Virus record (IMG/VR): IMGVR_UViG_3300017767_000007
Strand: one strand, 5' to 3'
From: an uncultured virus (IMG/VR IMGVR_UViG_3300017767_000007)
Lineage: Duplodnaviria; Heunggongvirae; Uroviricota; Caudoviricetes
DNA length: 64,000 nt
Made by a program: the position numbers and the translations under genes. Below, one piece after another: positions 7,233 through 25,033 of this stretch. The number at the start of each line of letters is the position of its first letter. Within the stretch, counting starts at the first letter, position 1. A model generated the notes under the pieces. The model was given only the letters and a program-made list of their open reading frames with translations. It was not told where the DNA came from and did not search any database.

Positions 7233-8702
7233 TTGGTTAGAGCAATGAACAATAAGAAGACCAAAAGGGCAAGTCCAGGTACAGGTTATGAAATAATCGA
7301 AAAGGAGTCTCATTTATTATCAACAATGTCAAGACTCGCATTTGCACGACACCTACACAATCTTTACCCCGTTAAGTCCGTTAAAGGATGGGAAATGGCT
7401 ACTCAAAGGTGGCAAAAGGGTAATAGTGTTATTAATCCAGAAGTTGTAGCAGCACCTACAACTCGTATGTATTCAACCGACGCATATTACTATAACAATG
7501 ATGAAGACCTTTACTTTACTTTCCTTCGTGCAGCCGACCAAGTAGTAAAAATAGAAGGTGATGTTCACCGACAAATGAAGGCTGATTATTCCAATATGGC
7601 AACTGACGCACTAACAATCAATGAAATGTGCAGAAAGTATGCAATGCCTCGACCCTGGTTGGAAGAATATCGAAAGAGGCATGGTTGGACTCACGATATG
7701 TCTCCTTTTACAGATGAAGAATTTGCAGAAAAGGACACAGATGAAATGGTAAAAGACCTTATTCATTGGAGAAAGAAGGAACTGTTTGAAAAGTTTGAAC
7801 AGGCTCGCTGGAAAGACCTTGAAAAAGATGCTTCAAAGTGGAGAAATCTTAACGACCACCTGTTAGAAGAGTTCCTAAATCTTATTCCAAACGCACCTGA
7901 AGCACCAAATCGCTTAGAATTAACCGATGATGAAAAGCCATATGCACTTGTAGTATCAGCAACTGACTTTCATTGGGGTAAATATGGTTGGGTTGATGAA
8001 GTAGGTGAAACATACGACTTCGATGAAGCAAAGCATAGACTAATGGATAGGACTCAAGACCTTGTATCTCGATTACCATACCAACCTGAAAAGATAATTA
8101 TGGGTACAGGCAGCGACTGGTTTCATGTTGATAACGACTTAGGGACAACTACAAAGGGTACTCCACAAGATATGTGCGGTACACCAGCCCAAATCCTTAA
8201 AAGTGGTTGTGAATTGGCTGTCGAACACATAGAATTACTTAGACAAGTAGCACCTGTTGAAATCTATAACATGGCAGGAAACCACGACAGAATGTCTGCT
8301 TTGGCTCTTATCATGTATCTTGACGCATATTACAGAAATGCTGATGATGTTAGCGTAGTAGTTTCACCATACCCAAGACAATACATGACTTATGGAAACA
8401 ATTTGATAGGTTTAACTCATGGTGATAAAGCAATGCAGAAGTTACCTGCACTAATGGCTAATGAAGCAAAGGCTGAATGGGGAGTAACTGACCACCATTA
8501 TTGGTTTCACGGACATTTGCACCATCAAACTGTTAAAGAAAGTGCTGGAACTCTTATTATTCAATTGGCTTCTCTTGCAGGGCATGACAGATACCACGCA
8601 AGGGCTGGTTATACAATGTCAAAAGCAGGTTTGTCTGGATATATGATTGACAAAGAAGAAGGTCTAATTTGCAGTTTGTTCTCTCCTGTGGAGGGGCATT
8701 GA
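7233..8702 (+). CDS. Calcineurin-like metallophosphoesterase with N-terminal extension
   Basis: Motifs TDFHWG, GSDWF, GNHD, THGD, HGHLHH. Confidence 0.85.
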   Translation: MVRAMNNKKTKRASPGTGYEIIEKESHLLSTMSRLAFARHLHNLYPVKSVKGWEMATQRWQKGNSVINPEVVAAPTTRMYSTDAYYYNNDEDLYFTFLRAADQVVKIEGDVHRQMKADYSNMATDALTINEMCRKYAMPRPWLEEYRKRHGWTHDMSPFTDEEFAEKDTDEMVKDLIHWRKKELFEKFEQARWKDLEKDASKWRNLNDHLLEEFLNLIPNAPEAPNRLELTDDEKPYALVVSATDFHWGKYGWVDEVGETYDFDEAKHRLMDRTQDLVSRLPYQPEKIIMGTGSDWFHVDNDLGTTTKGTPQDMCGTPAQILKSGCELAVEHIELLRQVAPVEIYNMAGNHDRMSALALIMYLDAYYRNADDVSVVVSPYPRQYMTYGNNLIGLTHGDKAMQKLPALMANEAKAEWGVTDHHYWFHGHLHHQTVKESAGTLIIQLASLAGHDRYHARAGYTMSKAGLSGYMIDKEEGLICSLFSPVEGH

Positions 8703-8828: not shown

Positions 8829-8972
8829 ATGAGCGAACATCATAGGTTTTGTGAAAAGGTATACTGTAAGTTTTGTGGCTTTGCTACAGGAATTATGGAA
8901 GCGTCAAAGGCAATGGCTGGTAAATGTCCCCACTGCAAAAAAGAAGGGGGGTTGATGCCTCTTGGGTATTAA
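8829..8972 (+). CDS. Small zinc-ribbon protein
   Basis: CKFC...CPHC from ATG 8829. Confidence 0.5.
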   Translation: MSEHHRFCEKVYCKFCGFATGIMEASKAMAGKCPHCKKEGGLMPLGY

Positions 8973-10446
8973 CACCACTCGTATGAGCCTTTTAAGGTCA
9001 AAAAACGATATTAAGTATTTCTATGAATGGTTAGGTTATACATGGGGAGAGCATATAGATGAATGGGTCAATCTTTATACTGATAGAAAAGATGCACAGG
9101 TTCACAGGACTTGTATTATTGCGCCTCGTGACCACAGTAAATCAACAACCCTCCGTATTGTATTGCTACACCATGCTCTTTTTCTAAAGTGGCGTAGCAA
9201 ACCTTTTACTTGTTGGTTGTTTTCCGCAAGCAGGGATACTGCTTCAAGGCGTTTACAAGAAATAAGAGAAGATATTCTAAAGCATCCTGAATTGTCAAAG
9301 TATCTTGATACTAAGCGTGGTGGCAAATATGAATTGTTTTTTACTAATGGCGCATGGATAAGAGCCACATCTGTTGGTTCTGCTATTCGTGGTGAGCATC
9401 CAGCCTGTATTGCTCTTGACGATGTTCTTATGGATATGGGAGATATGTCAATGGATTCAGTTAGAGGTTGGCTTAGAAAGGTTGTCACTCCTATGTTGTC
9501 TCCAGGAACCAGCCTATATTGTGTTGGAACTCCTATGGCTATGACTGATATTTACCATACTGAAATGTTAGGTAATAAGGTTTGGAAAGCAGGCGTTTGG
9601 TCTGCAATCCTCAATTGGGATGAATACAAAGCCGACCCTGATAATGTTAAGCCAGAATGCCTTTGGCCTCAACATAGACCCATAGATTTTATACTTGAAC
9701 AAAAAGAGGCTATGCAGGAATTAGAATTTACTCAAGAATACCTTTGTAGAGTTATTGATGAAGATTCACAAGTATTCCCAAGAAAGATAAGCCGTCAAAA
9801 TATGGATATGGAATTAATGTTAGAAAAGGAAAAATTTCATGATGGCAAGTATGTAATTGGTTTTGACCCCTCACATGGATTAGGAAAAGACTACTCAGTC
9901 CTTGTAGTATTGAGGCAAGACTCGGATGGTTACATTTATCTCGTTGATATTTGGAGAAAGAATGACTTTCCACCTGAAAAGCAGGTTAATGTCATAGCGC
10001 AGTATAACGAAAGGTATAACATGCCTCCTATCGCTATTGAAGATGTAGGGTTTCAAAGGTTGTATAATGCCATACTTATGCAAAAGGGAGTTACTATTGA
10101 TTACAGACCGTCTAAAGCAAGCAACAAATCCCTAAAGCAAGGGCTGATGAGCAGACTTAGAGCATGGTTTGAACAAGGGAGAATTGTATTACCCTTCGGA
10201 GATGAACCGACTCGCAGGGTTATCAGATTATTTTTAGAAGAGTTAGAAAGTCATGCCTGGAAAAATGGTGACATAGTGGACTTAGGAAAACACAATGATA
10301 TGGTTATGGCCTTCGCTCACGCCATAGACCAATTCATTATGCCAACCAAACATGAGTCATTTAGTATGTCAAGCACTTCTCTCAACAACTGGCAAAATTC
10401 TACTGAATCTCCAAAACCTGGCGGAAAATTCCCATTTTTCTTTTAA
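8962..10446 (+). CDS. terL: Terminase large subunit
   Basis: Walker A variant APRDHSKST, Walker B IALDD, VGTP coupling motif, nuclease IGFDPS and HNDMVMA. Confidence 0.92.
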   Translation: MGINTTRMSLLRSKNDIKYFYEWLGYTWGEHIDEWVNLYTDRKDAQVHRTCIIAPRDHSKSTTLRIVLLHHALFLKWRSKPFTCWLFSASRDTASRRLQEIREDILKHPELSKYLDTKRGGKYELFFTNGAWIRATSVGSAIRGEHPACIALDDVLMDMGDMSMDSVRGWLRKVVTPMLSPGTSLYCVGTPMAMTDIYHTEMLGNKVWKAGVWSAILNWDEYKADPDNVKPECLWPQHRPIDFILEQKEAMQELEFTQEYLCRVIDEDSQVFPRKISRQNMDMELMLEKEKFHDGKYVIGFDPSHGLGKDYSVLVVLRQDSDGYIYLVDIWRKNDFPPEKQVNVIAQYNERYNMPPIAIEDVGFQRLYNAILMQKGVTIDYRPSKASNKSLKQGLMSRLRAWFEQGRIVLPFGDEPTRRVIRLFLEELESHAWKNGDIVDLGKHNDMVMAFAHAIDQFIMPTKHESFSMSSTSLNNWQNSTESPKPGGKFPFFF

Positions 10447-10533
10447 TATAAAGTTTTTTTTCAGAAATTTTTTTTGTGTATTATGCGCTCTGGTGGGCGT
10501 TAGGTTAGTACAAAAAATCTTTTTTTTTGTCAT

Positions 10534-10543
10534 CATATATAAG
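10534..10543 (+). promoter_or_regulatory. TATA box for leader transcript
   Basis: CATATATAAG about 35 nt before a structured non-coding region. Confidence 0.5.
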
Positions 10544-10576
10544 CATTTACCATACTACTTCATATACTTGAATGAA

Positions 10577-10864
10577 TAGGCTTATTTGTCCCCGATGGCG
10601 GGGGCGGGGGGGCGACTTCCTACGGCATGCGTCGTGAAAAGTATGGCTATAGTAGTGTAAACTACGGTGGTGTTAAGGGGCGAAGCGTATAAAAAAGTGT
10701 TAAGGGTTCATAGGTGTAGAAACGCTACAAATCGGTTAGATGCCGAACCTATGGGCGAAGCCATAGCACTATCCAAAAAACGGATGTATAGCCATAGACC
10801 TTCCCGATGCGAAGGTGATACGATAGGTGATTGACCGATAAAACAAGTATAGCGAATAAGCCTA
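10577..10864 (+). ncRNA. Candidate structured ncRNA / long 5' leader
   Basis: Closing stem 10577-10588/10853-10864, inner 10-bp stem 10642-10651/10787-10796, several hairpins. Confidence 0.6.
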
Positions 10865-10915
10865 AGCCGAATAAATACGGGCGATAACGAACAAACCAAA
10901 AGGGGGTGTTTACGG

Positions 10916-11287
10916 ATGGCAAAAAACCAACCAAAGGCACAAACAAGCGTGGTTAAAGCGACACCAAAAACGCAACTTAACGCAATGGGGAAGCGCACAA
11001 AGCGTGGATTCAATGCGGAAGGTGTAGCGAATGGCTTGAATAAGGCTATTCGATGCGGTGAAGACTACTTAGAAGCATACTATATGGGCGAATACTACCG
11101 TTCATCAAATGCTTGCGACGGTGTAATTGCATTCATTAACGGTGCAATTCAATATGCCGAAGCGTATGTGGTCAAGGCTTCCGACGATGGCAACGACCTT
11201 GATGCAATGACTTCCAAGTCCATTGCTAAAGCGATAGGTTATGTCAAGATGTTAGAAGGCTTAACGCACACCAAGCAACAAGTTTGA
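10916..11287 (+). CDS. Hypothetical early protein, basic N-terminus
   Basis: GGGGGTG RBS; contains no CAG/GAG/CTG/CTC in any frame. Confidence 0.75.
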   Translation: MAKNQPKAQTSVVKATPKTQLNAMGKRTKRGFNAEGVANGLNKAIRCGEDYLEAYYMGEYYRSSNACDGVIAFINGAIQYAEAYVVKASDDGNDLDAMTSKSIAKAIGYVKMLEGLTHTKQQV

Positions 11288-11332
11288 ACCAAGAATGAAT
11301 AAGACATGAATGGCGAACTAACCCCCATAAGA

Positions 11333-11643
11333 CACACATTATGTGTGAATCCCATGCTTAGACCTAAGCCGTTCTTTAACGGGGTGTGATTTTGACACCA
11401 ACGATAGCAACGGGGGACTTAACGGGATTAACAAGGCGACCCATGCCATAATGAATAGATGGGCGAATATGGATAACGACACAATCCACGCATCACATAG
11501 CGATAGATGTGACCCTTTGGCCGAATGGGTGACAATCGGCCACCCTAACGGATAGGGGGATTGCATACGCTTCTAAAGGATTAAGTTGAATACCTAAAGG
11601 CGCACATGATAAACCCATGAATGTGCGTGTGTGCATCCCCCCC
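11333..11643 (+). ncRNA. Candidate structured ncRNA
   Basis: At least eight adjacent hairpins and nested stems in an intergenic gap. Confidence 0.6.
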
Positions 11644-11649
11644 GTAATT

Positions 11650-11844
11650 ATGGAAGAATACAATATAAACCAATTTTGTATAGGTTGCGAAACCATACAT
11701 CATAATTCAATCGTAATGGTTGAAATCGAAATGCAATTAATAGACGGGTCAATACTTGACTTCAAATTATGCGAAAGGTGTTATGCCACTATGAAAGCAC
11801 CACAAGAATGCGTGGCAATATTAGTTAAGGGGTATGAAGCATGA
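11650..11844 (+). CDS. Small zinc-finger protein
   Basis: CIGC...CERC; likely ATG 11650. Confidence 0.55.
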   Translation: MEEYNINQFCIGCETIHHNSIVMVEIEMQLIDGSILDFKLCERCYATMKAPQECVAILVKGYEA

Positions 11845-12032
11845 AGTCCCTATACATGCGAAATAGAACCCTATACAACCAACTACAAAGGCAATGTGCC
11901 GAATACAACAAGAAGGCACTACAATGGTGTTTCAACCGCCCAAGCATGGGGTATGCTATGATACACCCAACCGAAGATAAGGTAGTTATCTTCGATACAA
12001 ACAATAACACAATCACCCTTAAGGAATTGTGA
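11841..12032 (+). CDS. Hypothetical protein
   Basis: ATGA overlap with previous gene. Confidence 0.55.
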   Translation: MKSLYMRNRTLYNQLQRQCAEYNKKALQWCFNRPSMGYAMIHPTEDKVVIFDTNNNTITLKEL

Positions 12033-12448
12033 ACATGGTGGATTGGGTTGGGGGTCATGCCCCCTTCCCGACCATACACATGTTAGGAAACATTGTAATT
12101 GAAGGCGAAGTAGTTGTAGCACTTTGTTTGATTGTTGGCTTGATGCTTGGATGGTATCACGCACACATGAAGGCATTTGCTATGGCGGAACAAGATGGAA
12201 CACCAAAGCGTAGGCACAAATACTTCAATATACCCGTTATATTGGATATGCCTGAAACCCTGAAATATACGGGGCATTTAGGATTGCTTGAAGATGCAAT
12301 AGCATCAATCAAGGGATTGTCTGAATTAGCCGACGACGATAAGGAAGACCATCAACTTCATCTAAGATTGATGAAAGACCATTATAGACATGCGGAAGAT
12401 ATACTTTTTGATATTGGATGCGGTCTCGGTGAAAGAAGTCACGAATAG
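12029..12448 (+). CDS. Hypothetical protein with one TM helix
   Basis: VVVALCLIVGLMLGW segment. Confidence 0.55.
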   Translation: MNMVDWVGGHAPFPTIHMLGNIVIEGEVVVALCLIVGLMLGWYHAHMKAFAMAEQDGTPKRRHKYFNIPVILDMPETLKYTGHLGLLEDAIASIKGLSELADDDKEDHQLHLRLMKDHYRHAEDILFDIGCGLGERSHE

Positions 12449-12491
12449 ATGAATACCCATAATCCGACATGATACGGGGTCGTAATGAAGT

Positions 12492-12527
12492 CATAGGGGG
12501 TTCGCCCCCTATGGCTTCCCTTTTTTT
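12492..12527 (+). terminator. Hairpin + T-tract terminator
   Basis: CATAGGGGG-TTCG-CCCCCTATG then T7. Confidence 0.8.
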
Positions 12528-12553
12528 ATTTGTATAACACCAGATCTGCAGAT

Positions 12554-12742
12554 GAGATCTCCCCCGCAACCAAAAAAAATACTGCGTTCCTGCTGCTGCA
12601 CCAGATGAGGTCTGTATATGTAAAAAACACAGCGCCAGCCTGCTGCTGACGAGATCTCCTACAAAATAGTAAAAAACATCTGCGAGGTCCTGGGACCTCC
12701 CCCTGACAGACAAAACTAAAAGATAGCGCAGGCTGCTGCTGA
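12554..12742. repeat. Degenerate ~48 bp tandem repeat (about 4 units; further copy at ~13304-13355)
   Basis: Units of GAGRTCT/GGACCT ... A-tract ... GCG ... CTGCTGCTG. Confidence 0.6.
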
Positions 12743-12743
12743 T

Positions 12744-13079
12744 TCAATCTTCGTCAGGCCAGCAACTGCTGCATTCGCATCCAACATAGCACCAGGGTTC
12801 TTCAGACTTAGGCTGCAAAATAATCTTTGGTGGGCCTGCATCTTCAGCCCAGGGGTCAAATTCTTCTTCATCAGCAACAACAGGTTCTTCCTGGTGAAGC
12901 GTTTCCAGCATCCACAGGACGGATTCAACTTGGTCAGGTCTTAGCTGGCCATTGTTCTTGTTTACAGGAATCTGGGATTGGAACGCCTTATTGCAGGAAG
13001 GGCAGACCCATTTGTTGCCCAAGCAGGCCTCCATTACTATGCCACATTCGCAGGCAATCTGTACAGAAATCTGCATCAT
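12744..13079 (-). CDS. Zinc-ribbon hypothetical protein
   Basis: CECG...CPSC and C-terminal CECSSC. Confidence 0.55.
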   Translation of the reverse strand: MMQISVQIACECGIVMEACLGNKWVCPSCNKAFQSQIPVNKNNGQLRPDQVESVLWMLETLHQEEPVVADEEEFDPWAEDAGPPKIILQPKSEEPWCYVGCECSSCWPDED

Positions 13080-13219
13080 TCATCACCACACATGCAGGGC
13101 ATCAGAAATCCCTCGTTGTCTTTTATCGGCAGGCCTCGTGTTTTAAATCCACCACAAGTCAGGCATTGCTGCGCCATGACATTGCGGAAGATTGTTCCAG
13201 ATATGGTTTCGTTCCCCAT
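13076..13219 (-). CDS. Small zinc-ribbon protein
   Basis: CLTC...CMC; ATG 13219 about 22 nt after TATA at ~13241. Confidence 0.5.
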   Translation of the reverse strand: MGNETISGTIFRNVMAQQCLTCGGFKTRGLPIKDNEGFLMPCMCGDE

Positions 13220-13370
13220 GTAACTGCTACTACTAACTACTATATAAGTCTTTAAGAGGTCTCCACAGATGGTTATATCGGGAGAATTTAGCCTGCAGGC
13301 CAACAGATCTCCCCAGCCAGCATAATAAACAAAAAAAGCTGCGCCTGCTGCTGGCAGGCTTCCCAAACGG

Positions 13371-13407
13371 AAAAAGCTGATGCAGGGGCCTGAACCCCCG
13401 CACCAGC
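13371..13407 (-). terminator. Hairpin + T-tract terminator
   Basis: Minus strand GCTGGTGCGGGGG-TTCAGG-CCCCTGCATCAGC then T-run. Confidence 0.65.
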
Positions 13408-13555
13408 GGCCACCTGACTAAACAGGGTAATGCCCCATGAAACCCCGAACAGATCTCATAGGGCGGTTATGCGGTTGCTGTATCTGTGCCTTCCTCATCA
13501 CACGCATATCGGTATCATAACCTGCAAACCTGAAGATTGCTGCTAAGCTGAAGAA

Positions 13556-13891
13556 TCACTTCTTAGCCTTTGCTGCTTTTTTCTTCGGTGCTGCTTTAGC
13601 TGCTTCCTTTGCTTTCTTTGCGTCTGCAAGGGCTGTTGCCGTCTGCTTTGCCATCAAGGTTGCTCCCATAAGGTTTGTTGCTGCCTTTACTGTCTTAGCT
13701 GGGTGTGCCTCTACATTGCATAGAATAAGGTTCGCTACTGCTTCGCTGCTTACCACAAGGTTGCTGAACTCCTCTTCCGAAATGTTCCCGTCTGTTAGCT
13801 GTTGCATGTTATACATCTCAACTAATCTGCGTTGCTTGTTCACGGTATCGCAAATCTGCTTTTGCTGTGCGTCTCCAAATTTATTTGTCAT
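13556..13891 (-). CDS. Hypothetical protein with histone-H1-like Lys/Ala tail
   Basis: GGAGGTGG RBS before ATG 13891 (ORF track extends to 14005); ends AKKAKEAAKAAPKKKAAKAKK. Confidence 0.7.
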   Translation of the reverse strand: MTNKFGDAQQKQICDTVNKQRRLVEMYNMQQLTDGNISEEEFSNLVVSSEAVANLILCNVEAHPAKTVKAATNLMGATLMAKQTATALADAKKAKEAAKAAPKKKAAKAKK

Positions 13892-14303
13892 CTTTTCCAC
13901 CTCCTTCCCCTCTTGTCGTGGACTTTTTCGACCTGATTGGTCGGGCGTATTGCTGTCGCAATCTGATGGTATCGGGGCATCGCTACCTGTCATTATTTCC
14001 GCCATGAATCAGTTATTGCATCCAAGTATATAAGTGTTTAGCAGATGAGCACAGGGGGTATAATCACGATTTTTAGGCAGGTCTCCACAGCATGTTGGCT
14101 CAGGAAAAAGTAATCTGGTATGTCAGGTAAGTTTCCTGGCAGTACCTCACAGTTAAAAAAGATAATCCCTGCAATAAAGTTTATATCAGACCTCCTACTA
14201 AAAATATAATATATCAGTTCCTGTTCCTACAATCTCATAGAGGCTCAAGAACAGCACACTTCTTGGATTTCAAAATCAGGCTATTCCTCCAAACCTTTAA
14301 GTA

Positions 14304-14525
14304 TCAGATATCACATTCACAGGCAAATACAGCATTTGGAGCACCCTTCATACCAGCAGCCTGATTGTTGCCACCGCAGGTTTTACAGAAATGCTTCACA
14401 TTCAGCATACAAGAGGTATCATTGCAAAATCCTGTTCCATCAACATCAACACCGCAGATGCAGGTTTCGCTGGTGGTAGCACAAATAATGCAGGAAGGGG
14501 GACAAATATCAGGCATCAAATACAC
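14304..14525 (-). CDS. Cys-rich hypothetical protein
   Basis: ORF track; multiple CxxC. Confidence 0.45.
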   Translation of the reverse strand: MYLMPDICPPSCIICATTSETCICGVDVDGTGFCNDTSCMLNVKHFCKTCGGNNQAAGMKGAPNAVFACECDI

Positions 14526-14794
14526 CGCCAGCGTGTAGGAGGAGTTACAGTTTTACCACCAGGTTTTACTTCACCGCAGGAACATTCAGCAACATGAGGG
14601 AATTGAATCCTTGACAGTTTATTCAGCAAGATTGCAGATACTTCGTGTATGCAGAAGCCATCACCATGTTCAGCAACAACAGGTTTACCACCTATTTTCA
14701 GGCTGAACCATTCAAATGATTCCAGACTATCAGGACTATACCGTATATGAGTATGCCCCAGACTTTCTATTTCTATTGTGAAACCAGCAACCAT
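14516..14794 (-). CDS. Hypothetical protein
   Basis: ORF track; coupled to neighbours. Confidence 0.5.
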   Translation of the reverse strand: MVAGFTIEIESLGHTHIRYSPDSLESFEWFSLKIGGKPVVAEHGDGFCIHEVSAILLNKLSRIQFPHVAECSCGEVKPGGKTVTPPTRWRCI

Positions 14795-15126
14795 CAGATG
14801 TCACCCCACTTCAGGACTTTCCTGCTTTTGTATCTTTCAAAGCCAGATTTTTCTCCACCAACAGGATGCGGGATAACATTTTGCAGGCCGATGAAGAACA
14901 TCAGGTCATGGAGCACCATCAGGTTTTCTTGGTGGCATAATCGCAGACTTACCAGTTTTCTATATGCTATAATTTCAGCAATTTCAGATATACCCATGTT
15001 CAGGACATCAGGCCATTCTTCTTTTTCGACCAGCGACATCAGTTTTCTTCTATACAATTCAGGGATATATTCTATTCCCAAATGTTGCAGGTATTCCTCC
15101 AATGCTTCATCTTCAATCAGTGACAT
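14794..15126 (-). CDS. Hypothetical protein
   Basis: ORF track; coupled; heavy CTG usage. Confidence 0.55.
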   Translation of the reverse strand: MSLIEDEALEEYLQHLGIEYIPELYRRKLMSLVEKEEWPDVLNMGISEIAEIIAYRKLVSLRLCHQENLMVLHDLMFFIGLQNVIPHPVGGEKSGFERYKSRKVLKWGDI

Positions 15127-15400
15127 CAGATTTACCCCACAAGTTCAGATTATACCATACAATACCAGCAACAACAGGTTTTTCCCTAATATCCGCACCA
15201 GATTGCAGACAATGCAGGCTAACGGGTGTCGCTACAGTTATGTTCAGGTGACCAGACCATATAGATACTTCTAACAGGTAGTCAGGTGTGTCGAGATTAA
15301 CCAATTGTTCATCAGTTAATCTGTCTTTTCGTTCTTCAGATTTTGTCAGGGATTTCCCCCCTTCAGGTTTTTCTTCCATGTTATGAGGTAGTAAGTTCAA
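15113..15400 (-). CDS. Hypothetical protein
   Basis: Likely leaderless ATG 15379 after TATA at ~15404. Confidence 0.5.
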   Translation of the reverse strand: MNLLPHNMEEKPEGGKSLTKSEERKDRLTDEQLVNLDTPDYLLEVSIWSGHLNITVATPVSLHCLQSGADIREKPVVAGIVWYNLNLWGKSDVTD

Positions 15401-15634
15401 GTATATAAGGTTTTAGCAGGTCTCCTAAGCAAGCCAAATCAAGCCATCAGGTCTCCTTTTATCGTTGAGATAGATAATATATTGTGTGTCTGGAGGTAGC
15501 ATCTGTCACCATGAGCGATAAAAAACCTAAAAAGCCTCTATTCCTGCTGCTCGACTTCCCAACAGACCTCCCAATCAATAGACTTTGACAGGCATCTGTG
15601 GCCTTCTGCATGGATAATAGACCAAAATTCAGAT

Positions 15635-15901
15635 TTACAATATTGACAGATATACCTCTTCACCAGTTTCCTCCCCATCATATACTATCTCACCGAACAG
15701 ACGAGTAAATTCTGCACCGTATGTTTCCCAGCAATTAAATTCATTGCATCTGCTTGAACAGGCTGGACCTGAACAATCGAGGAAATTTGGGTCATGTGTG
15801 AGAAACCACTCATGTTGCTGTTTTGTAATTGGTCGCCACAGATATTCAGTTACCATCTGATTCAACCTCCTTAACTGCGTCAAGCAGGGATATGTCGTCA
15901 C
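15635..15901 (-). CDS. Hypothetical protein
   Basis: ORF track. Confidence 0.45.
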   Translation of the reverse strand: MTTYPCLTQLRRLNQMVTEYLWRPITKQQHEWFLTHDPNFLDCSGPACSSRCNEFNCWETYGAEFTRLFGEIVYDGEETGEEVYLSIL

Positions 15902-15976
15902 ACTTCAGGCAACGGCTGGTATCACCAACAAGAGCCATCATCTGCGAACAATTGATACAAGCACGAGGAATACTGC

Positions 15977-16453
15977 TTAACATCTTAATTCCTCATCTGT
16001 GAACCACAAGTCATCATGGTTGGCTGTTCTATCTCTTATTGCCATTAGAATATCTGATGGGATTGTGAAATAACTGCCCTTGCCTCGTGTGAAGTCATAG
16101 TCAGTTCCTGTATTCATCCAACCTATTGTTGCCTGTTTGTACTGTTTGAACCATTGCATCTGCATAAACTGTGTCACAAGTTTTTGCCTGATAGTGTATT
16201 CGGCCTGTAATGGGACATTTGCGTCTGGGCAATGATGTTCCCTGCACCAATTTTCCCACAATTCATCTGATAATGCTCCTTCATGTTCAAGGATTATCTG
16301 TTCCCTGTCTTCGCTGTTCACCCAACCCATAATTCCTGATTCTGCGAAGTCCCATGCGTAGGGCTCCTCTTCCTCTTGGGTTGTTCCTGCTTGCTCATTC
16401 GTTAATTCCTGCCATCTGTATAGATGGTATGGAATCGCTGTTTCTTTTTCCAT
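15977..16453 (-). CDS. Hypothetical acidic protein
   Basis: ATG about 24 nt after TATA at ~16477. Confidence 0.7.
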   Translation of the reverse strand: MEKETAIPYHLYRWQELTNEQAGTTQEEEEPYAWDFAESGIMGWVNSEDREQIILEHEGALSDELWENWCREHHCPDANVPLQAEYTIRQKLVTQFMQMQWFKQYKQATIGWMNTGTDYDFTRGKGSYFTIPSDILMAIRDRTANHDDLWFTDEELRC

Positions 16454-16627
16454 ATTACGAGATAGATAGTTCCAATATATAAGGTTTTGGCAGAAGTTAT
16501 CTGTTTATTTTAATCAAGCAATCTGAATCGCAGTCGAAGCATACCAAATGCAGGGTATCATACGAATCTCCAACAGCAATGATATTATCGCTGCCACAAT
16601 CTGCACATGCCATGTAAAAATCTGAAC

Positions 16628-16897
16628 TCATACTTTCCACCCGTCTGCTGTTGCTTGTGCATCTGCAATCTTTTGAATCTTGTCAGACCATTCCTGCGTA
16701 TAACCACCTTCCCTGATAATCTGTCCGATGGTTTGTCCGTTATCAAGCCTCAAATACAGAAATCGTCTGGCCATGTCAAGGCTCATTTTATCTATTGGAA
16801 TCTCCTCAAAGAAGGTATGAGCAAGTGCTCCTATTATGCCCTTTAATTCGTGAATCTGCATTTCTGCCTTTTCTAAATCGGTAAAATCTGGATTCAT
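16628..16897 (-). CDS. Hypothetical protein
   Basis: Likely ATG 16897 just after stop of upstream gene. Confidence 0.55.
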   Translation of the reverse strand: MNPDFTDLEKAEMQIHELKGIIGALAHTFFEEIPIDKMSLDMARRFLYLRLDNGQTIGQIIREGGYTQEWSDKIQKIADAQATADGWKV

Positions 16898-16898
16898 C

Positions 16899-17453
16899 TC
16901 AATGACCACCACTAATGCTGGCTTCGTAGTAATCTGATTCGTATTTGGATATCTCACATTGCTCATCTTCGTCGTGAACATAATCTGCAAACTTGGTATA
17001 TTCCTCACAATCTGTATTACCATCGAATAAATCCCAGATATACTCAAACGCCCTATCCAGTTTTACTGATAAATGATTGTAAAGATTCCAAAAACTGCCG
17101 TAAAATGCTGGTTTGGCTACAATTGGCTCTTCGCTGAAGTGTTGCTTTGTCGTCTCCATACCCTGTATAGCGCATGAATAGTGTCCTGCTAATTTCAACA
17201 AAAGATTCTTTTGCTGTTCCATCTCTTCTTTAGTCCAATTTACATAATCTGGTGTAGCATCGTTATATCTGATTGATGCACCTAAAACTGACATAAGCCA
17301 TTCCGCCTCAATAACGGGTGGGGTATCTGGAACGCAACCAAATCCTGTAATTGCATTTTCCATTGCCTGTTTTTCCTCATCACTAAGATTTTCCCTGATT
17401 ATAATAGGTTTATCTGGTGCTGGTAATCTGAAATATTTTTCAATATCTGTCAT
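16899..17453 (-). CDS. Hypothetical protein
   Basis: ORF track; promoter at ~17507. Confidence 0.65.
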   Translation of the reverse strand: MTDIEKYFRLPAPDKPIIIRENLSDEEKQAMENAITGFGCVPDTPPVIEAEWLMSVLGASIRYNDATPDYVNWTKEEMEQQKNLLLKLAGHYSCAIQGMETTKQHFSEEPIVAKPAFYGSFWNLYNHLSVKLDRAFEYIWDLFDGNTDCEEYTKFADYVHDEDEQCEISKYESDYYEASISGGH

Positions 17454-17616
17454 TCGTTCTTCACTTCCCTGCTTTCTTTTCGCATAATATCAGATAGACC
17501 TAACTTATATATAAGGTTTTGGCAGATCTCCACAAGTCGTTCAGACGCCCAACATGGGGGATATAGGGAGTATCAGCAGGCGCAATTTCATGTGAGCACA
17601 AGATAAAAAACCTGAA

Positions 17617-17967
17617 TCATTCTTCTTCCTGCTGCTCGTCTTCTATGAATGCTTGCAGATGTTTTTCCGCCCTGTCTAACTCATCAATCTCTTTGTCATC
17701 ATCCCATGTGCAGGTTTTAAGCCAAACTGATGATACACCTGTATGGTCTGCATGTAATTCCCAATGCCACAATCGCTGGTTACTGTAATGTAGGTCGCCA
17801 AGAGGACAATGTGTTCTTTCCAGTAAACTATCTATTCGCAGGTTTACTGCAAGACTAATTTCTGATTTAGCAAAGAGGCTGATATGCTCAATACCGTATC
17901 TTGTTTTACATTTCTCTAACAACAGCAAAGAATCTTTGCTATTCCTGATTAGGATTTCGTAGGCCAT
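17617..17967 (-). CDS. Hypothetical protein
   Basis: ORF track; promoter at ~17992. Confidence 0.6.
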   Translation of the reverse strand: MAYEILIRNSKDSLLLLEKCKTRYGIEHISLFAKSEISLAVNLRIDSLLERTHCPLGDLHYSNQRLWHWELHADHTGVSSVWLKTCTWDDDKEIDELDRAEKHLQAFIEDEQQEEE

Positions 17968-18080
17968 GTATTGAGGTAAATACTAATAGTATTTATAGTT
18001 TTAGCAGACCGCATGAGCACTAATACAGATTCAGATCTCCTACGCTAAATACTTATATACTATTACTAATTACCTCTATT

Positions 18081-18190
18081 TGTTCCGTTAGGTGAAAAGA
18101 TGAAGCAGACGACACCCCCTCCAACGCTTTCGTTCAGCGTGTTTCTGATTTCTTTCATGTCTTTCGTTTGCAGATTTTCCCTGCGGAACA
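18081..18190 (+). ncRNA. Candidate ~110 nt stem-rich RNA
   Basis: TGTTCCG/CGGAACA closing stem starting about 25 nt after a TATA box; internal ACGCT/AGCGT hairpin. Confidence 0.45.
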
Positions 18191-18200
18191 CCTATTTACT

Positions 18201-18272
18201 GGGCTACAAGTATCAAGGAGATACACTGTCTTTGGTTTGGCAGAGGGCGAGGTTCAATTCCTCGGTAGGCCT
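18201..18272 (+). tRNA. Atypical tRNA-like gene (Pro-TGG-like, 8-nt anticodon loop)
   Basis: Acceptor GGGCTAC/GTAGGCC (1 mismatch), D stem GTAT/ATAC, anticodon stem CTGTC/GGCAG, T arm CGAGG-TTCAATT-CCTCG. Confidence 0.7.
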
Positions 18273-18308
18273 CCTATTCCACCCTAATACAGAAGTGGAG
18301 GTAATAAT

Positions 18309-18515
18309 ATGGTAAAGATAAGCAGAAGAAACAGTAAAGAAGTATGGCAAACAGATATACCTAAAGATAAACTCAGCAAGTGGGGTTATCCTGATGAAAG
18401 GTTTTTCAGTTTCAGCCGTTGTGTATGGCGAACAGAAGAAAAGTATGAATCCCTGTGGATTCCTCGACATTCCTCACACAACCCCTATAATCAATTGGAG
18501 GCATTAGATGTCTGA
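18309..18515 (+). CDS. Hypothetical protein
   Basis: GGAGGT RBS. Confidence 0.55.
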   Translation: MVKISRRNSKEVWQTDIPKDKLSKWGYPDERFFSFSRCVWRTEEKYESLWIPRHSSHNPYNQLEALDV

Positions 18516-18861
18516 TTTGAATGCAAAAGGCAGAACAGCAGTTTTTGATATGCTTGGAAGTCAGTTAATTACAGGTAAAGAATATCAATTCTTTGTCGCT
18601 GATAAGGATATGGCACTTCAGGGGCAACTCGATGATAATAAACTCGTAGCATTTCAGGTATGGCCTGGTGACGGCTCAACCCTCTTCATGTCCTTACGCT
18701 CAAATAGAATCGTATCTGAAAGAACGGCTGGTTTAATGGCTGTAAAGATGATTATTGACTGGTGTGAAGACCAAGAAGAGCTCGATTCAGGGGCAATTTC
18801 AGACAACCTCTATGACTTCTTAGAAACAGACGAAGGGAAAGCCCTGTGGGAGGGAAACTGA
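18508..18861 (+). CDS. Hypothetical protein
   Basis: GGAGG RBS. Confidence 0.6.
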   Translation: MSDLNAKGRTAVFDMLGSQLITGKEYQFFVADKDMALQGQLDDNKLVAFQVWPGDGSTLFMSLRSNRIVSERTAGLMAVKMIIDWCEDQEELDSGAISDNLYDFLETDEGKALWEGN

Positions 18862-19038
18862 TGGCTCATTACATGTATTGTAGTATTCCTGACTGTGATA
18901 ACAAAACAGATATGATGGGATTTGCTATCTGTTCCTCTTGTTTCCAAAAAGCAGTAGAAATAACACAAAAAGCAGAGGCATCCTCTTAAAATCTTATATA
19001 TTAGTAGGTAATAGCAGTAATAACACACAAAAGAACAG

Positions 19039-19575
19039 GTGAAACGAATGACAGAATTAAGAGGATTAGGATTAAAATGTTGTGGTCAGCAACGCAGGTA
19101 TGACAGAAAGATATTTACTGTGATGGGTTCACAGTCAGGTGCGGGACTATCAATGAGTTGTATCTGCGGTTATTGTGGTGCTTCACATCAGGTTAAACTT
19201 CCATACCCTCATTTTATCAGGCATCTTCCGATAAAAGACCAGATAGAATCTCTTAGCCACCACATGATACATTCGCAGATAGGCGGTCAGTATTGGTATA
19301 GTGTCAGGAAGATGCAAAGAAAGCACAGCATCGGCCAGCATAAGCAAATGCTCGACGCAGAAACCGATGAATTACACCACGCAAGAGGTTCTGATACAAG
19401 AAAATTCTTCAACCAATTAGAGCGTGAACTCATGGATAGGAATCTGGGGCTCGCATCCAAGAAACAGCAACTTAATTATTGGGACAGGAAGCACAGGCGT
19501 ATGGAACACTTTGATGAGAAGTGGGAGAAATTTATCGCAGGTCACAACCTATCGGAGGTGTTGTATTGGCAATAA
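19039..19575 (+). CDS. Hypothetical Cys/His-rich protein
   Basis: Own promoter; likely ATG 19048. Confidence 0.6.
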   Translation: MKRMTELRGLGLKCCGQQRRYDRKIFTVMGSQSGAGLSMSCICGYCGASHQVKLPYPHFIRHLPIKDQIESLSHHMIHSQIGGQYWYSVRKMQRKHSIGQHKQMLDAETDELHHARGSDTRKFFNQLERELMDRNLGLASKKQQLNYWDRKHRRMEHFDEKWEKFIAGHNLSEVLYWQ

Positions 19576-19964
19576 ATCTGTGGAAATTGGAGGACTACAA
19601 AGAATACCTCAGCGACTTAGGTTGGTCTGATGAAAGAATTGAAGATGAGGCCGAATACCGCTTTACAGATGTTCAGGGTGAACAAATCAAATACAGGATT
19701 AGACCTGACGGCTCATGGCATTGGCAGGAATTGTGTGATACAGGCGGATATTGGGAGCCAATAGAGGACCTAACAGAACACCTCCTATGGTATTTCAAAT
19801 ATACAGAAGGCGAGGGATTTAGATGTGTCTGTCATGATTCTCAATTCCTCACACTCAAATTAGTAAAGAACCCTGAAGGGTCTGAATACCCATACAGGTA
19901 TGAAGCAGATGATGACTGCGTATGCTGTCACCACAACAAAACTGATGCAGGAGTCCCCTCTTAA
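19521..19964 (+). CDS. Hypothetical acidic protein
   Basis: ORF track; true start probably later. Confidence 0.55.
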   Translation: MGEIYRRSQPIGGVVLAINLWKLEDYKEYLSDLGWSDERIEDEAEYRFTDVQGEQIKYRIRPDGSWHWQELCDTGGYWEPIEDLTEHLLWYFKYTEGEGFRCVCHDSQFLTLKLVKNPEGSEYPYRYEADDDCVCCHHNKTDAGVPS

Positions 19965-20022
19965 AACCTTATATATGATGACTAACTAACTCATAATAAC
20001 CGAAAAAAGAACAGGTGATGTA

Positions 20023-21189
20023 ATGAATGAAACAGATTTAGATATAGCAATGGGTATGCTGGAAGATGATGCAAAGGCCAGCAAAGCCCGTCAAGAACGC
20101 AGGAATAAAGCCATTGGGCGAAGGAAAGAGATAGAGGAAGAGTTTACAAGCAGGGTCATTGAAGCCCTTGAATCAGGCTCACCTCTTGGAAAGTGGGATA
20201 TAGGCCACAATGCTGCTGACCATCTTGGCGGAGGCTTCCCTCTTAACTTCAAAACAGGCAAACATTATCGTGGTATAAATGTATTTTTCCTGTGGTTTGC
20301 TCAAATGGATTCTGGAGGCTCATCTAAGTGGGGAACGAGGAAACAATGGTTCGACTATCTCCAAAGACTCTATGACAGCATTACCAAGAAGATGCCTGAA
20401 CACATGAAACCAGATATCAACCAATTCATACCTGAGGCTGGCGAGGGTTCACCTATTGTATTCTATAAGCCTGTTAAGGGTAAGAAGAAGGACAAGGCAA
20501 CAGGCAAACTCACTGACAAGGATGCCTGGATTCCGATGATGCGAGTTTATGAAGTATTCAATCAGGGGCAACTCAAACTTGACCCTGTTCTCAAAGCAAT
20601 GATGGGTCTGGAGGCACCAAGAGAATTACCTGAAGATGAAAGGGAAGCGAGGTGTTGGCAGATTGTTAATGATTATGTCAAGCGAACAGGTATCACCATA
20701 GAGCATAAAGGCACTTCCTCATATAACATGGATTCTGGAGGTAAAGATAAGAAGGGTCTGGTTGTGACTCCCGAAAGGGACTTCTTCAAGACACCAGCAA
20801 TATTCTGGGGTCATCTGTGGCACGAATTAGTGCATTCAACAGGTCACGCTCTTAGACTTAACCGACCTAAATCCTCCAACCTCAACACATGGACTGAAGA
20901 TGATTATGCTGACGATGAGATGTGGGATAAGTTATCTCGTGAAGGCTCTTATGCAAGGGAAGAACTCGTAGCGGAATTAGGTGCTGGTATGCTATGCCTG
21001 ATGATGGGCTTTGAATACGACACCAGACATGCAATATACCTCAAGTCATGGATTGCTGCTCTTAATGACGACCACTCAATGATTATCAGGATGGCTACGG
21101 CTGCTCAAAAGGCTCTTGACCTCATCTTAGGAACTGAATACGACAATAAGGAGGACGCTGAAGATGGCGCTGAAACCTCCGAATCCTGA
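20023..21189 (+). CDS. ardC: ArdC-like ssDNA-binding antirestriction protein with zincin domain
   Basis: PLNFKTGKHYRGIN, YEVFN, HELVHSTGH, YAREELVAELGA, YLKSW motifs. Confidence 0.85.
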   Translation: MNETDLDIAMGMLEDDAKASKARQERRNKAIGRRKEIEEEFTSRVIEALESGSPLGKWDIGHNAADHLGGGFPLNFKTGKHYRGINVFFLWFAQMDSGGSSKWGTRKQWFDYLQRLYDSITKKMPEHMKPDINQFIPEAGEGSPIVFYKPVKGKKKDKATGKLTDKDAWIPMMRVYEVFNQGQLKLDPVLKAMMGLEAPRELPEDEREARCWQIVNDYVKRTGITIEHKGTSSYNMDSGGKDKKGLVVTPERDFFKTPAIFWGHLWHELVHSTGHALRLNRPKSSNLNTWTEDDYADDEMWDKLSREGSYAREELVAELGAGMLCLMMGFEYDTRHAIYLKSWIAALNDDHSMIIRMATAAQKALDLILGTEYDNKEDAEDGAETSES

Positions 21190-21577
21190 AACCGAAAGGA
21201 TATTGATTGAGTTGCAAGAGGAACAGAAGCAACTATACGATTCAATTAACAGGATAAGCCACTTAACTGCTTATGCAGAAGTAAAAAAATTATTTCATGC
21301 TCACCATACAGAAGACCTGTATAGATTCATCCAAAATGTAAATGCAGAATTTACAACAGTAAGGGGAGAGATACTCGCAATGAATAATACCCTGTGCCAA
21401 TGCGGTTGCAGAAGATGCTCAGGCCTTGACTTCCAGACTTATACACACTATAACATAGAAAAAGGAGGTAATATTACCCTGACATTGTGTGGCATGTGTC
21501 GCTCAAACGCTTGTGGACCTCATGTAAAGTCAAACGACTCGCAACGATATATACCTTCAAGGACTGGTTGGTGCTGA
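21164..21577 (+). CDS. Hypothetical protein with Zn-binding C-terminus
   Basis: ORF track. Confidence 0.55.
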   Translation: MALKPPNPETERILIELQEEQKQLYDSINRISHLTAYAEVKKLFHAHHTEDLYRFIQNVNAEFTTVRGEILAMNNTLCQCGCRRCSGLDFQTYTHYNIEKGGNITLTLCGMCRSNACGPHVKSNDSQRYIPSRTGWC

Positions 21578-23372: not shown

Positions 23373-23400
23373 AATTAAATGAATTTCAGTCAATGGAGAG

Positions 23401-24735: not shown

Positions 24736-24739
24736 TTTC

Positions 24740-25000: not shown

Positions 25001-25033
25001 TTCAATTCAAAGATAAAAATACGGGGCGATTGA

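What the first reader, a model, noticed from the sequence alone, without database searches (positions are those of the whole stretch)
10493..12251. A 1.76 kb zone with no SAG trinucleotide (CAG/GAG/CTG/CTC) on either strand
Seen: reading line by line, the last motif is CTG at 10490-10492 and the next is CTG at 12252; on the plus strand CAG/GAG are absent from 10465 to 12540. A rough composition estimate gives 80-100 expected. TAG, AAG, CAC and GAC are common here, so the exclusion is specific. It covers four ORFs in all frames and two non-coding regions, so codon bias cannot explain it. The zone starts just after terL and the plus-strand gap ends just after a terminator. Known analogy: T5 first-step-transfer DNA is depleted of restriction sites. 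Inference: this is the first-entering or first-transcribed end of the genome, and it must stay free of a SAG-directed modification or of a host sensor that reads SAG.
Basis: partly seen in the sequence, partly recalled or inferred. Interest (0 to 1): 0.95.

Follow-up and report, generated by a model that had tools for sequence, protein, structure and literature searches.

The report
Viral operon purged of SAG triplets
In one clade of marine, probably archaeal, tailed viruses a roughly 2 kb gene cassette beside the DNA-packaging gene never contains the triplets CAG or GAG on either strand although its sequence evolves fast, as if it must stay invisible to an unknown enzyme that reads that motif.

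Summary
The window has no CAG/GAG/CTG/CTC from 10493 to 12251, where about 94 are expected; the next largest gap in 64 kb is 198 nt.

It is neither chance, codon bias nor shared ancestry. All 12 relatives with terL at 80% identity or more, and all 10 further gene-A loci, have a 1.3-2.3 kb SAG-free zone at the same place. Their zone DNA is mostly not alignable. None of 13 more distant relatives has one.

Close pairs differ by 61-113 substitutions. Ten to 21 should have created the motif and none did, so the filter is still acting.

The zone is one plus-strand cassette. It starts at a conserved motif and TATA-like box after terL. It holds a ~340-nt structured leader, a conserved 123-aa protein of unknown fold family and small variable genes. 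It ends at a hairpin/T-run terminator, followed at once by a SAG-dense repeat array.

Sense-strand SAG is never tolerated; all seven independent exceptions are CTS.

My best reading (0.35) is a cassette kept free of the target of a strand-reading, SAG-specific nuclease or modifier, chiefly at transcript level. The agent was not found.

The parts
8962..10446 (+). terL (large terminase), the upstream neighbour and anchor of the zone
   Evidence: Pfam Terminase_6C E 5.5e-10. 35 relatives found in IMG/VR. About 25% identity to T4-like terminases.
10447..10500 (+). Left boundary: T-runs after terL, then the conserved motif GGT(G/A/T)GGCGT at 10492-10500. The last CTC/CTG lie at 10488/10490.
   Evidence: (invariant columns).
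10493..12251 (.). Zone with no CAG/GAG/CTG/CTC on either strand
10465..12540 (+). Plus-strand (sense) SAG-free stretch of 2,079 nt. It runs from just after terL to 13 nt past the terminator T-run.
10535..10543 (+). TATA-like box ATATATAAG (inferred promoter; the transcription start is not mapped)
   Evidence: Read from the sequence. TAGTATATA is conserved in the W-like lineages.
10580..10915 (+). Long 5' leader. A conserved TAGG..TTTGTCC motif and first hairpin lie at about 10585-10610.
   Evidence: The plus strand folds with z -3.2 and the minus strand with z +0.24. The hairpin is kept in 9 lineages with little covariation. GCGA occurs 18 times in the eight 250-nt bins from 10501 to 12500 and TCGC 0 times.
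10916..11287 (+). Gene A, 123 aa: the one protein conserved in every zone. Predicted three-helix bundle of unknown function.
   Evidence: 25-94% identity across lineages. pLDDT 82.7 with no PDB match at E<=0.001. 13 clusters among 1.84 billion representatives.
11288..11616 (+). Second non-coding stretch inside the zone
   Evidence: No plus-strand ORF of 40 aa or more. 17.6 motifs expected, 0 seen.
11617..11844 (+). 75-aa ORF with CxxC...CxxC (zinc-ribbon-like)
   Evidence: Homologues in L001 and L002.
11841..12032 (+). 63-aa ORF
   Evidence: Homologue in L001.
12029..12448 (+). Gene Z, 139 aa, with a hydrophobic N-terminal segment. It holds the only exceptions in the window: CTG at 12252, 12260 and 12321, and CTC at 12425.
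   Evidence: only clade-specific homologues.
12487..12531 (+). Terminator: 14-nt inverted repeat (12487-12500 / 12505-12518) plus T-run 12521-12527
   Evidence: The weak Rfam ctRNA hit is only this hairpin.
12541..12745 (.). SAG-dense intergenic array beginning CAGATCTGCAG. It has ~50-nt repeats of A-run + CCTGCTGCTG + CAGATGAGATCT. Read on the minus strand these are GC elements plus T-runs.

Best explanation
The zone is a self-contained, insulated expression cassette. It comprises a promoter region, a structured leader, gene A, small variable genes and a terminator. Purifying selection keeps it completely free of the recognition triplet of a strand-reading, SAG-specific nucleic-acid enzyme that is active during infection.

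I commit to an endonuclease that acts on single strands, with the cassette's own transcript as the critical target. A motif-less mRNA can still be translated when every other RNA, host or viral, is being cut. The cassette's products, plausibly an inhibitor or switch, can therefore always be made.

The nearly complete exclusion on the antisense strand would then reflect a weaker DNA-level or second-strand exposure to the same activity.

Shown:
- the exclusion, its specificity and its conservation by position;
- ongoing selection;
- the stricter rule on the sense strand.

Shown in part: the cassette boundaries (terminator shown; the promoter and transcription start are inferred and not mapped).

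Inferred:
- that the agent is a nuclease;
- that it acts on RNA;
- that the cassette encodes its antagonist.
For: 1. Absolute and specific absence: 0 against about 94 expected.
2. The same zone occurs in 12 of 12 close terL relatives that have downstream DNA, and in 10 of 10 further gene-A loci analysed. It occurs in 0 of 13 distant relatives with 1.3 kb or more downstream. The zones are mostly not alignable.
3. In six close pairs with 61-113 substitutions each, 9.7-20.9 motif-creating changes are expected and 0 are seen. None of 2,000 simulations per pair gave 0.
4. Plus-strand SAG is absent from about the conserved left motif to 13-18 nt past the terminator T-run in every lineage that has both ends. 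SAG density jumps to 12-16 per 100 nt right after.
5. All 7 independent internal exceptions are CTS, never SAG, on the sense strand, although 58% of motif-creating substitutions would give SAG (P = 0.0022).
6. The sense RNA is more folded than shuffles: leader z -3.2, and 8 of 8 250-nt windows negative. The antisense strand is not consistently so.
7. The ribosome-binding sites in the zone read GGGGG/AGGGG/AGGA, not GGAGG.
8. Enzymes with two- to three-letter single-strand specificity are common. Among archaeal MazF homologues 132 of 186 were active with short motifs (PMC13107127, listing abstract and passages).
9. RNA-library contigs from three studies match 10611-11465 at 100% identity. This is only a weak hint of expression.
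Against: - No SAG-specific nuclease, RNase or methyltransferase was recognised in the ~65.7 kb genome by Pfam, PHROGs or NCBIfam. The host is unknown.
- A purely RNA-level agent does not explain why CTS is also almost wholly excluded: about 47 are expected per zone and 0-4 are seen.
- The motif-free DNA seems to begin 55-130 nt upstream of the inferred promoter. The start site is not mapped, and that stretch is AT-rich.
- All other viral genes carry SAG at normal or raised density, so they would be hit too. That requires a temporal or inhibitor step for which there is no evidence.
- Gene A has no recognisable function.
Confidence: 0.35

Rival explanations
1. DNA-level escape without any entry model. 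A frequent-cutting, strand-specific nickase or a bulky base modification aimed at SAG/CTS (of the chlorovirus Nt.CviQII R^AG / M.CviQII kind) acts on the duplex. This cassette must stay un-nicked or unmodified so that it can be transcribed. Lesions on the template strand block RNA polymerase, which would make one strand stricter than the other.
For: - Exclusion on both strands is the natural outcome for a duplex target.
- The promoter-proximal DNA is also motif-free.
- Virus-encoded nickases with degenerate three-letter sites exist (PMC3017599, passages).
- Phage HNH nickases with 3-7 bp sites sit beside terminase genes (PMC3592412, abstract and passages).
- Clade-specific enzymes of unknown role are absent from 4 complete non-zone relatives: a GNAT-ABC ATPase fusion and a dNMP-kinase-like protein.
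Against: - No methyltransferase or nickase was recognised.
- About 3,300 sites elsewhere in the genome would be nicked or modified.
- If the nick falls in the SAG-bearing strand, as in Nt.CviQII, the strictly protected strand is the non-template one, which should matter least for transcription.
Confidence: 0.2
2. One reading: the zone is the genome end that enters the cell first (T5 first-step-transfer analogy). It must survive a host SAG-directed nuclease until its products neutralise it.
For: - Position next to terL and next to a repeat array that could be a packaging site.
- Small fast-evolving genes typical of host take-over.
- An ArdC-like anti-restriction homologue lies in the same clade-specific block.
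- T5's two-step transfer is real (preprint 10.64898/2026.04.02.716235, listing abstract only). That the T5 first-step DNA lacks EcoRI sites is recalled, not from a call.
Against: - No terminus evidence. The map is circular, a relative's repeat is a 119-nt overlap, and contigs break in and around the zone at many different points.
- TerL is T4-like at about 25% identity. Such terminases often package by the headful (recalled).
- The strand asymmetry is not predicted.
- The cassette is transcribed towards, not away from, the putative end.
Confidence: 0.08
3. Directed mutation rather than selection. A transcription-coupled editing or hypermutation activity converts the A of SAG (and the T of CTS) within this unit, so the motif is erased as fast as it arises.
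For: - The zone is bounded by a transcription unit and affects both strands, with the non-template strand more complete.
- Zones are 3-10 points richer in G+C than the upstream flank in 9 of 10 lineages. CpG observed/expected is about 1.0 against 0.52-0.87.
- Strand-symmetrised, the 22 SAG lost per kb are matched by +24.9 SGG and +20.0 SCG per kb. WAG (+1.2) and SAA (-1.5) hardly change.
- Zone proteins evolve much faster than terL.
Against: - A>C products are as enriched as A>G, which a deaminase would not give.
- Wobble-position and Arg-codon shifts forced by the ban can explain the CpG and G+C rise.
- Gene A stays a conserved protein.
- No deaminase was found.
Confidence: 0.1
4. Exclusion of a DNA-binding protein. 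A viral or host protein that nucleates on CWG/SAG-rich DNA (the CTGCTG / CAGATCTG arrays beside the zone) silences or packages DNA. The cassette is kept free of any nucleation site.
For: - Every lineage has a SAG-dense array with CTGCTG/CAGCAG runs right after the terminator.
- The neighbouring clade-specific region is SAG-enriched: CAG observed/expected 1.36.
Against: - Binding to a three-letter word is weak and cooperative, so single sites should be tolerated. The ban is absolute over 20.5 kb of independent zone sequence.
- The strand asymmetry is unexplained.
Confidence: 0.07
5. Avoidance of a CRISPR adjacent motif, so that no spacer can be taken from, or used against, the earliest transcript.
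For: Adjacent motifs are 2-3 nt and count on both strands. Orientation rules could give strand asymmetry (reasoning only, no call).
Against: - The rest of the genome stays fully targetable.
- No CRISPR link to the presumed hosts was found in the passages read.
- Absolute depletion of such motifs is not known (recalled).
Confidence: 0.03

Closest known systems
Motif-less transcripts immune to sequence-specific endoribonucleases (MazF / ACA-less mRNAs; archaeal MazF homologues with 2-3 nt motifs)
   Same: A short motif is completely absent from a transcript, so the transcript survives an enzyme that cuts that motif everywhere else. Three-letter specificity is usual for these enzymes (PMC9102682, listing abstract only; PMC13107127, passages).
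   Different: Here the motif is also missing from the antisense strand and probably from promoter DNA. The unit is a ~2 kb multi-gene viral cassette conserved across a clade. No such RNase or SAG specificity is known or was found.
Chlorovirus frequent-cutting nicking/modification systems (Nt.CviQII R^AG with M.CviQII; Nt.CviPII ^CCD)
   Same: They are virus-borne and strand-specific, with a degenerate three-letter site of the form (two-fold base)-A-G (PMC3017599, passages).
   Different: Those viruses protect their whole genome by methylation. Here no methyltransferase or nickase gene is recognisable, and protection is by absence of the site in one cassette only.
Phage T5 first-step-transfer DNA and T7 early region (restriction-site-poor, first-entering DNA)
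   Same: A local segment with host-take-over-type genes lacks a target that the rest of the genome carries (T5 two-step transfer: preprint 10.64898/2026.04.02.716235, listing abstract only; the site depletion is recalled).
   Different: Those cases concern 4-6 bp palindromes at a mapped physical end. Here a three-letter word expected about 94 times is absent, with strand asymmetry, and no terminus is known.
Genome-wide restriction-site avoidance in phages
   Same: Selection against a nuclease target.
   Different: The avoidance here is not genome-wide. Outside the zone SAG is at normal or raised frequency: observed/expected for CAG is 1.01 (core) and 1.36 (early region), and for GAG 0.79 (core) and 0.84 (early region).

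Membership tests
T5-type first-step-transfer region | Lies at a fixed physical genome end that enters first | not testable with these tools
   All runs are held as contigs. The map is circular. A relative's terminal repeat is a 119-nt overlap.
T5-type first-step-transfer region | Local depletion of a nuclease target that the rest of the genome carries | tested here: met
   0 against about 94 expected in the zone. Density is normal elsewhere.
T5-type first-step-transfer region | Encodes pre-early host take-over or anti-defence functions | tested here: inconclusive
   The four ORFs have no family, fold or named homologue.
Motif-less mRNA immune to a sequence-specific RNase (MazF/ACA-less type) | Motif absent over the whole sense transcript | tested here: met
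   Plus-strand SAG is absent from 10465 to 12540, and likewise in every lineage.
Motif-less mRNA immune to a sequence-specific RNase (MazF/ACA-less type) | Constraint confined to the sense strand | tested here: not met
   CTS is also excluded: 0-4 per zone against about 47 expected.
Motif-less mRNA immune to a sequence-specific RNase (MazF/ACA-less type) | A cognate RNase with that specificity in host or virus | not testable with these tools
   None was recognised in the virus. The host genome is unknown.
Virus-encoded nicking-modification system (Nt.CviQII/M.CviQII type) | Cognate DNA methyltransferase and nickase genes in the virus | tested here: not met
   No methyltransferase or matching nuclease was found. 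All window ORFs of 200 aa or more were scanned with Pfam; the 759-aa ORF in the 1.7-kb gap was scanned with PHROGs and relaxed Pfam; subsets were scanned with PHROGs and NCBIfam.
Virus-encoded nicking-modification system (Nt.CviQII/M.CviQII type) | Strand-specific degenerate three-letter target | tested here: met
   The excluded word is exactly SAG/CTS, with a stricter rule on one strand. This shows a target of that form, not the enzyme.
Genome-wide restriction-site avoidance | Depletion across the whole genome | tested here: not met
   Outside the zone, observed/expected for CAG is 1.01-1.36 and for GAG 0.79-0.84.
   Portal, terL, tail tube, PolB, RFC-like ATPase, Cpn60/TCP1, ERCC4 and PD-(D/E)XK are present. 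The best named PolB hits are haloarchaeal tailed viruses at 23-25%. No named magrovirus genome was available for comparison, and the genome is ~65.7 kb against the ~100 kb reported (PMC5434244, passages).

The most novel reading that the evidence does not exclude
A clade of marine archaeal viruses lives with a frequent-cutting, strand-selective SAG-reading enzyme, either its own or its host's, that hits nearly all nucleic acid in the cell. The clade carries a 'safe-harbour' operon written in a reduced vocabulary (no SAG, almost no CTS) that alone stays intact and expressible. Motif content would then act as a programmable sensitivity code, with SAG-free, SAG-rich and one-strand-only genes side by side. 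This principle of viral gene control and defence evasion has not been described.
Probability: 0.3. Interest if true: 0.92.

Novelty: new variant of a known kind. Interest (0 to 1): 0.85.

Why it matters
Avoidance of nuclease targets is known for 4-6 bp sites and is usually statistical. Here a three-letter word expected once every ~19 nt is absent from about 20.5 kb of independently evolving sequence in 12 lineages. The edges are sharp and the two strands are treated differently.

That implies an agent with very short specificity and severe consequences. It also implies a viral counter-design, a motif-free cassette, that could be searched for systematically in other viruses by k-mer gap scans.

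The pattern gives a concrete handle for finding a new nuclease or modification system in uncultured marine archaea and their viruses. Candidates are gene A, the clade-specific enzymes and the SAG arrays. It also offers a natural example of sequence rewriting under a vocabulary ban, including ribosome-binding sites and RNA structure.

Tried and rejected
- **Chance.** Rejected.
- **Codon bias.** Rejected. The two non-coding stretches alone should hold about 40 sites, and all frames are free.
- **TAG recoding.** Reading TAG as sense opens no convincing longer genes.
- **Known RNA family or tRNA.** There are none. The only Rfam hit is the terminator hairpin, below its threshold.
- **Identity by descent.** Rejected.
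- **General compositional island.** Only SAG/CTS and its sub-words are missing. The TCT/AGA deficit follows from overlap with the banned words.
- **Analogous zones with another motif in distant relatives.** Nothing comparable. G006 has a TAW-free stretch, probably a GC-rich island (its G+C was not measured). L012 has a marginal TAGA/TCTA gap.
- **R-loop origin driven by the G-runs of the leader.** The G-runs are not conserved in L007 and L022.
- **UV-dimer avoidance, primase-site avoidance, diversity-generating retroelement, tRNA-cleavage or codon models.** Considered and dropped, because they do not predict a both-strand, all-frame, non-coding SAG ban. No call tested these.
- **RNA-run contigs.** Twelve pieces from 4 runs were laid. 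Stretches without cover mean nothing, and the libraries may contain DNA.
- **Gene A function.** Foldseek against the PDB, the Atlas, profile searches and family scans gave nothing.
- **Host identification.** A scan of species genomes with terL found nothing.
- **Earlier notes of this scan.** None bear on this finding.
- **Literature.** Searches for magrovirus, first-step transfer/restriction sites, restriction-site avoidance/early region and ACA-less/MazF found no description of a motif-free cassette like this. Supplements were not read.
- **Coding strand of the early genes.** Synonymous/non-synonymous counts favour the minus strand only weakly, because the two candidate frames share wobble positions.
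Full report
**Observation**

- On both strands taken together, the last CAG/GAG/CTG/CTC before the zone is CTG at 10490. The next is CTG at 12252.
- This 1,762-nt gap compares with a median gap of 15 and a next-largest gap of 198 among 3,326 sites in the window.
- On the plus strand alone, CAG/GAG are missing from 10465 to 12540.
- From the trinucleotide frequencies of the rest of the window, 94 sites are expected in the 1,759 nt.
- The related words TAG, AAG, CAC and GAC are at or above expectation.
- Each part of the zone is empty: leader 22.6 expected, gene A 19.9, second non-coding stretch 17.6, the other ORFs 33.9.
- Among 316 three- and four-letter motif pairs, SAG/CTS stands alone at ln p = -83.5.
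- The deficit of TCT and AGA follows from overlap with the banned words.

**Conservation by position, not by sequence**

terL relatives were fetched from IMG/VR: 33 loci.
- Fourteen of them have terL at 80% identity or more.
- Twelve of the 14 have at least 1.3 kb of DNA after terL. All 12 have a SAG/CTS-free stretch of 1,364-2,320 nt starting just after terL.
- The other two end at or inside terL.
- Of the 19 loci at 73% identity or less, 13 have at least 1.3 kb downstream. None has a gap above 274 nt.

A second set was fetched with the conserved zone protein from metagenome contigs.
- It gave 12 loci. Ten were analysed; two were dropped as the same contigs as L002 and L007.
- All 10 place the gene inside such a zone.

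There are 12 distinct zone sequences, 20,520 nt in sum. They fall into about five groups that BLASTN cannot align with one another beyond short pieces.

**The filter is still acting**

Six close pairs of zones differ by 61-113 substitutions in well-aligned columns.
- I placed the same numbers and types of substitutions at random. This creates 9.7-20.9 motifs on average and never zero in 2,000 trials per pair.
- The observed number is zero in each pair.

**Anatomy**

- After the terL stop come T-runs and an invariant motif, GGT(G/A/T)GGCGT, at 10492-10500.
- A TATA-like box follows at 10535-10543. This is inferred; the transcription start is not mapped.
- Next are a conserved TAGG..TTTGTCC element and a first hairpin.
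- The leader is about 340 nt. It folds better than shuffles on the plus strand (z -3.2) but not on the minus strand (z +0.24).
- All eight 250-nt windows of the unit have negative plus-strand z-scores (-0.76 to -2.94). The six windows from 9001 to 10500, which span terL and the first 54 nt after its stop, range from -1.45 to +0.76.
- Gene A (10916-11287, 123 aa) is present in every zone at 25-94% identity.
  - It is predicted as a three-helix bundle (pLDDT 82.7).
  - It has no PDB match at E<=0.001.
  - It has only 13 related clusters among 1.84 billion representatives.
- A 329-nt non-coding stretch, two small ORFs and gene Z (139 aa) follow. Gene Z has only clade-specific homologues.
- The unit ends at a 14-nt inverted repeat plus T-run (12487-12527).
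- In each of the seven lineages whose right boundary was printed or inspected, the first CAG lies 13-18 nt beyond the T-run. It opens an array with 12-16 SAG/CTS per 100 nt, made of A-runs, CCTGCTGCTG and CAGATGAGATCT repeats.
- The ribosome-binding sites inside the zone read GGGGG, AGGGG or AGGA, never GGAGG.

**Strand asymmetry**

- From the left motif to the terminator, plus-strand SAG never occurs in any lineage.
- The internal exceptions are all plus-strand CTS: four in the window (12252, 12260, 12321, 12425), three in L001/L004 (two shared with the window), one in L052 and one in L048.
- That makes seven independent events against none.
- Yet 58% of single substitutions that would create the motif would create SAG, so P = 0.0022.
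- The constraint therefore reads the two strands separately and is strictest on the sense, non-template strand.

**Composition**

- Zones are 3-10 points richer in G+C than the upstream flank in 9 of 10 lineages. Their CpG observed/expected is about 1.0, against 0.52-0.87 in the flank.
- The rest of this genome is CpG-poor: 0.62 in the core and 0.51 in the early region. Four complete distant relatives lie at 0.72-0.92.
- Strand-symmetrised, the 22 SAG lost per kb are matched by +24.9 SGG and +20.0 SCG per kb. WAG and SAA hardly change.
- This could reflect directed change of the middle base. It is also what wobble-position and Arg-codon shifts under the ban would give, and A>C is as common as A>G. 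I do not take it as proof of a mutational mechanism.

**Genome context**

- The window plus 1,737 nt closes a ~65.7 kb circular map.
- Genes found: portal, terL, tail tube, tape measure, family B polymerase, RFC-like ATPase, Cpn60/TCP1 chaperonin, ERCC4 and PD-(D/E)XK nucleases, an ArdC-like protein and a T4 endonuclease V-like glycosylase.
- The best named PolB matches are haloarchaeal tailed viruses at 23-25%. TerL resembles T4-like terminases at about 25%.
- This fits the published description of magroviruses in gene content (PMC5434244, passages). I could not compare with a named magrovirus.
- The block from 10.9 to 25.8 kb has no counterpart in four complete distant relatives without a zone. 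The same holds for a GNAT-ABC ATPase fusion (38636-39811) and a dNMP-kinase-like protein (29361-30026).
- No DNA methyltransferase, matching nuclease, deaminase or RNase was recognised.

**Expression**

Contigs from RNA libraries of three studies match 10611-11465 (six pieces), 12977-14324 (five) and 7961-8159 (one) at 100% identity. These libraries may hold DNA and were chosen with this stretch, so this is only a weak hint.

**Interpretation**

The data require an agent with SAG specificity whose effect at a single site is severe. The pieces of evidence pull in different directions.
- The stricter sense strand, the exact end at the terminator, the folded RNA and the abundance of short-motif endoribonucleases in archaea favour protection of the transcript (PMC13107127, passages).
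- The near-complete ban on the antisense strand and in promoter-proximal DNA favours a duplex-level agent. The closest known kinds are the chlorovirus nickase Nt.CviQII (R^AG; PMC3017599, passages) and the phage HNH nickases beside terminase genes (PMC3592412, abstract and passages).

I therefore commit to a motif-free immunity cassette against a strand-reading SAG-specific nuclease or modifier, with the transcript as the main target. My confidence is 0.35. The rivals are:
- a purely DNA-level version, at 0.20;
- directed mutation, at 0.10;
- the entry-end model, at 0.08;
- protein-binding exclusion, at 0.07;
- CRISPR-motif avoidance, at 0.03.

The remainder is unexplained.

**Literature**

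I found no description of such a cassette in my searches. Three comparisons rest on recall, not on a call: T4 RegB (GGAG), Mu Mom (a site beginning S-A-S) and the restriction-site-poor first-step DNA of T5.

Noticed in passing
window 13450-14010, 14000-15500, 16100-17500; also downstream of the zone in L001, L003, L006, L007, L022, L049: Small clade-specific genes next to the zone show extreme one-strand partition of the same words. Genes 13556-14005, 15977-16453 and 16899-17453 have 5.6-6.5 sense SAG per 100 nt and 0-0.4 CUS. Genes 14304-15126 have 0.4-1.4 SAG and 5.7-7.2 CUS. Blocks of 300-600 nt with zero SAG or zero CTS on one strand recur in relatives. Preference for NNT or NNA codons may explain part of it. 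The coding strand is only weakly resolved.
   Followed up: partly
whole window versus 10493-12251: CpG is depleted across this genome (observed/expected 0.62 in the core, 0.51 in the early region) but not in the zone (1.0). Four complete distant relatives without a zone are at 0.72-0.92.
   Followed up: partly
window 38636-39811 (+) and 29361-30026 (+): A fusion of an ABC-type ATPase with a GNAT acetyltransferase domain (PHROG 11143, E 5e-97) and a dNMP-kinase-like P-loop protein are absent from four complete relatives that lack the zone. They are possible nucleic-acid-modifying enzymes. No link to SAG is shown.
   Followed up: partly
window 12500-26000: AGATC/GATCT is about 10 times more frequent here than in the rest of the window (14 against 1.4 expected). 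CAGAT and TCAGG are about 3 times enriched.
   Followed up: no
window 13240-13560 (-): A strongly folded minus-strand stretch (z -3.9; z -7 in one 250-nt window) with two GC hairpins each followed by a U-run. These are probably terminators of the minus-strand early genes.
   Followed up: partly
G006 61445-62327; G003 70653-71316; L012 6383-8169: Distant relatives have weaker motif-free stretches downstream of terL. G006 has an 882-nt TAW-free stretch (also free of AAAA and ATA; probably GC-rich, G+C not measured). G003 has a 663-nt ATG/CAT-free repeat region. L012 has a 1,786-nt TAGA/TCTA gap of marginal significance.
   Followed up: no
window 10734-10820: One contig from an oligo-dT RNA library matches 10734-10820 exactly. 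It then continues for 64 letters unlike the window. It may be a strain variant, a chimera or a processed RNA.
   Followed up: no
window 20023-21189 (+): An ArdC-like anti-restriction N-domain plus zincin peptidase lies in the clade-specific early block and is absent from the four distant relatives.
   Followed up: no
window ends / G002: The window wraps a ~65.7 kb circular map. IMG/VR contig G002 starts at window 33195 and ends near 14250, and 1,737 nt lie between the window's end and its start. A related contig of 65,478 nt exists.
   Followed up: partly
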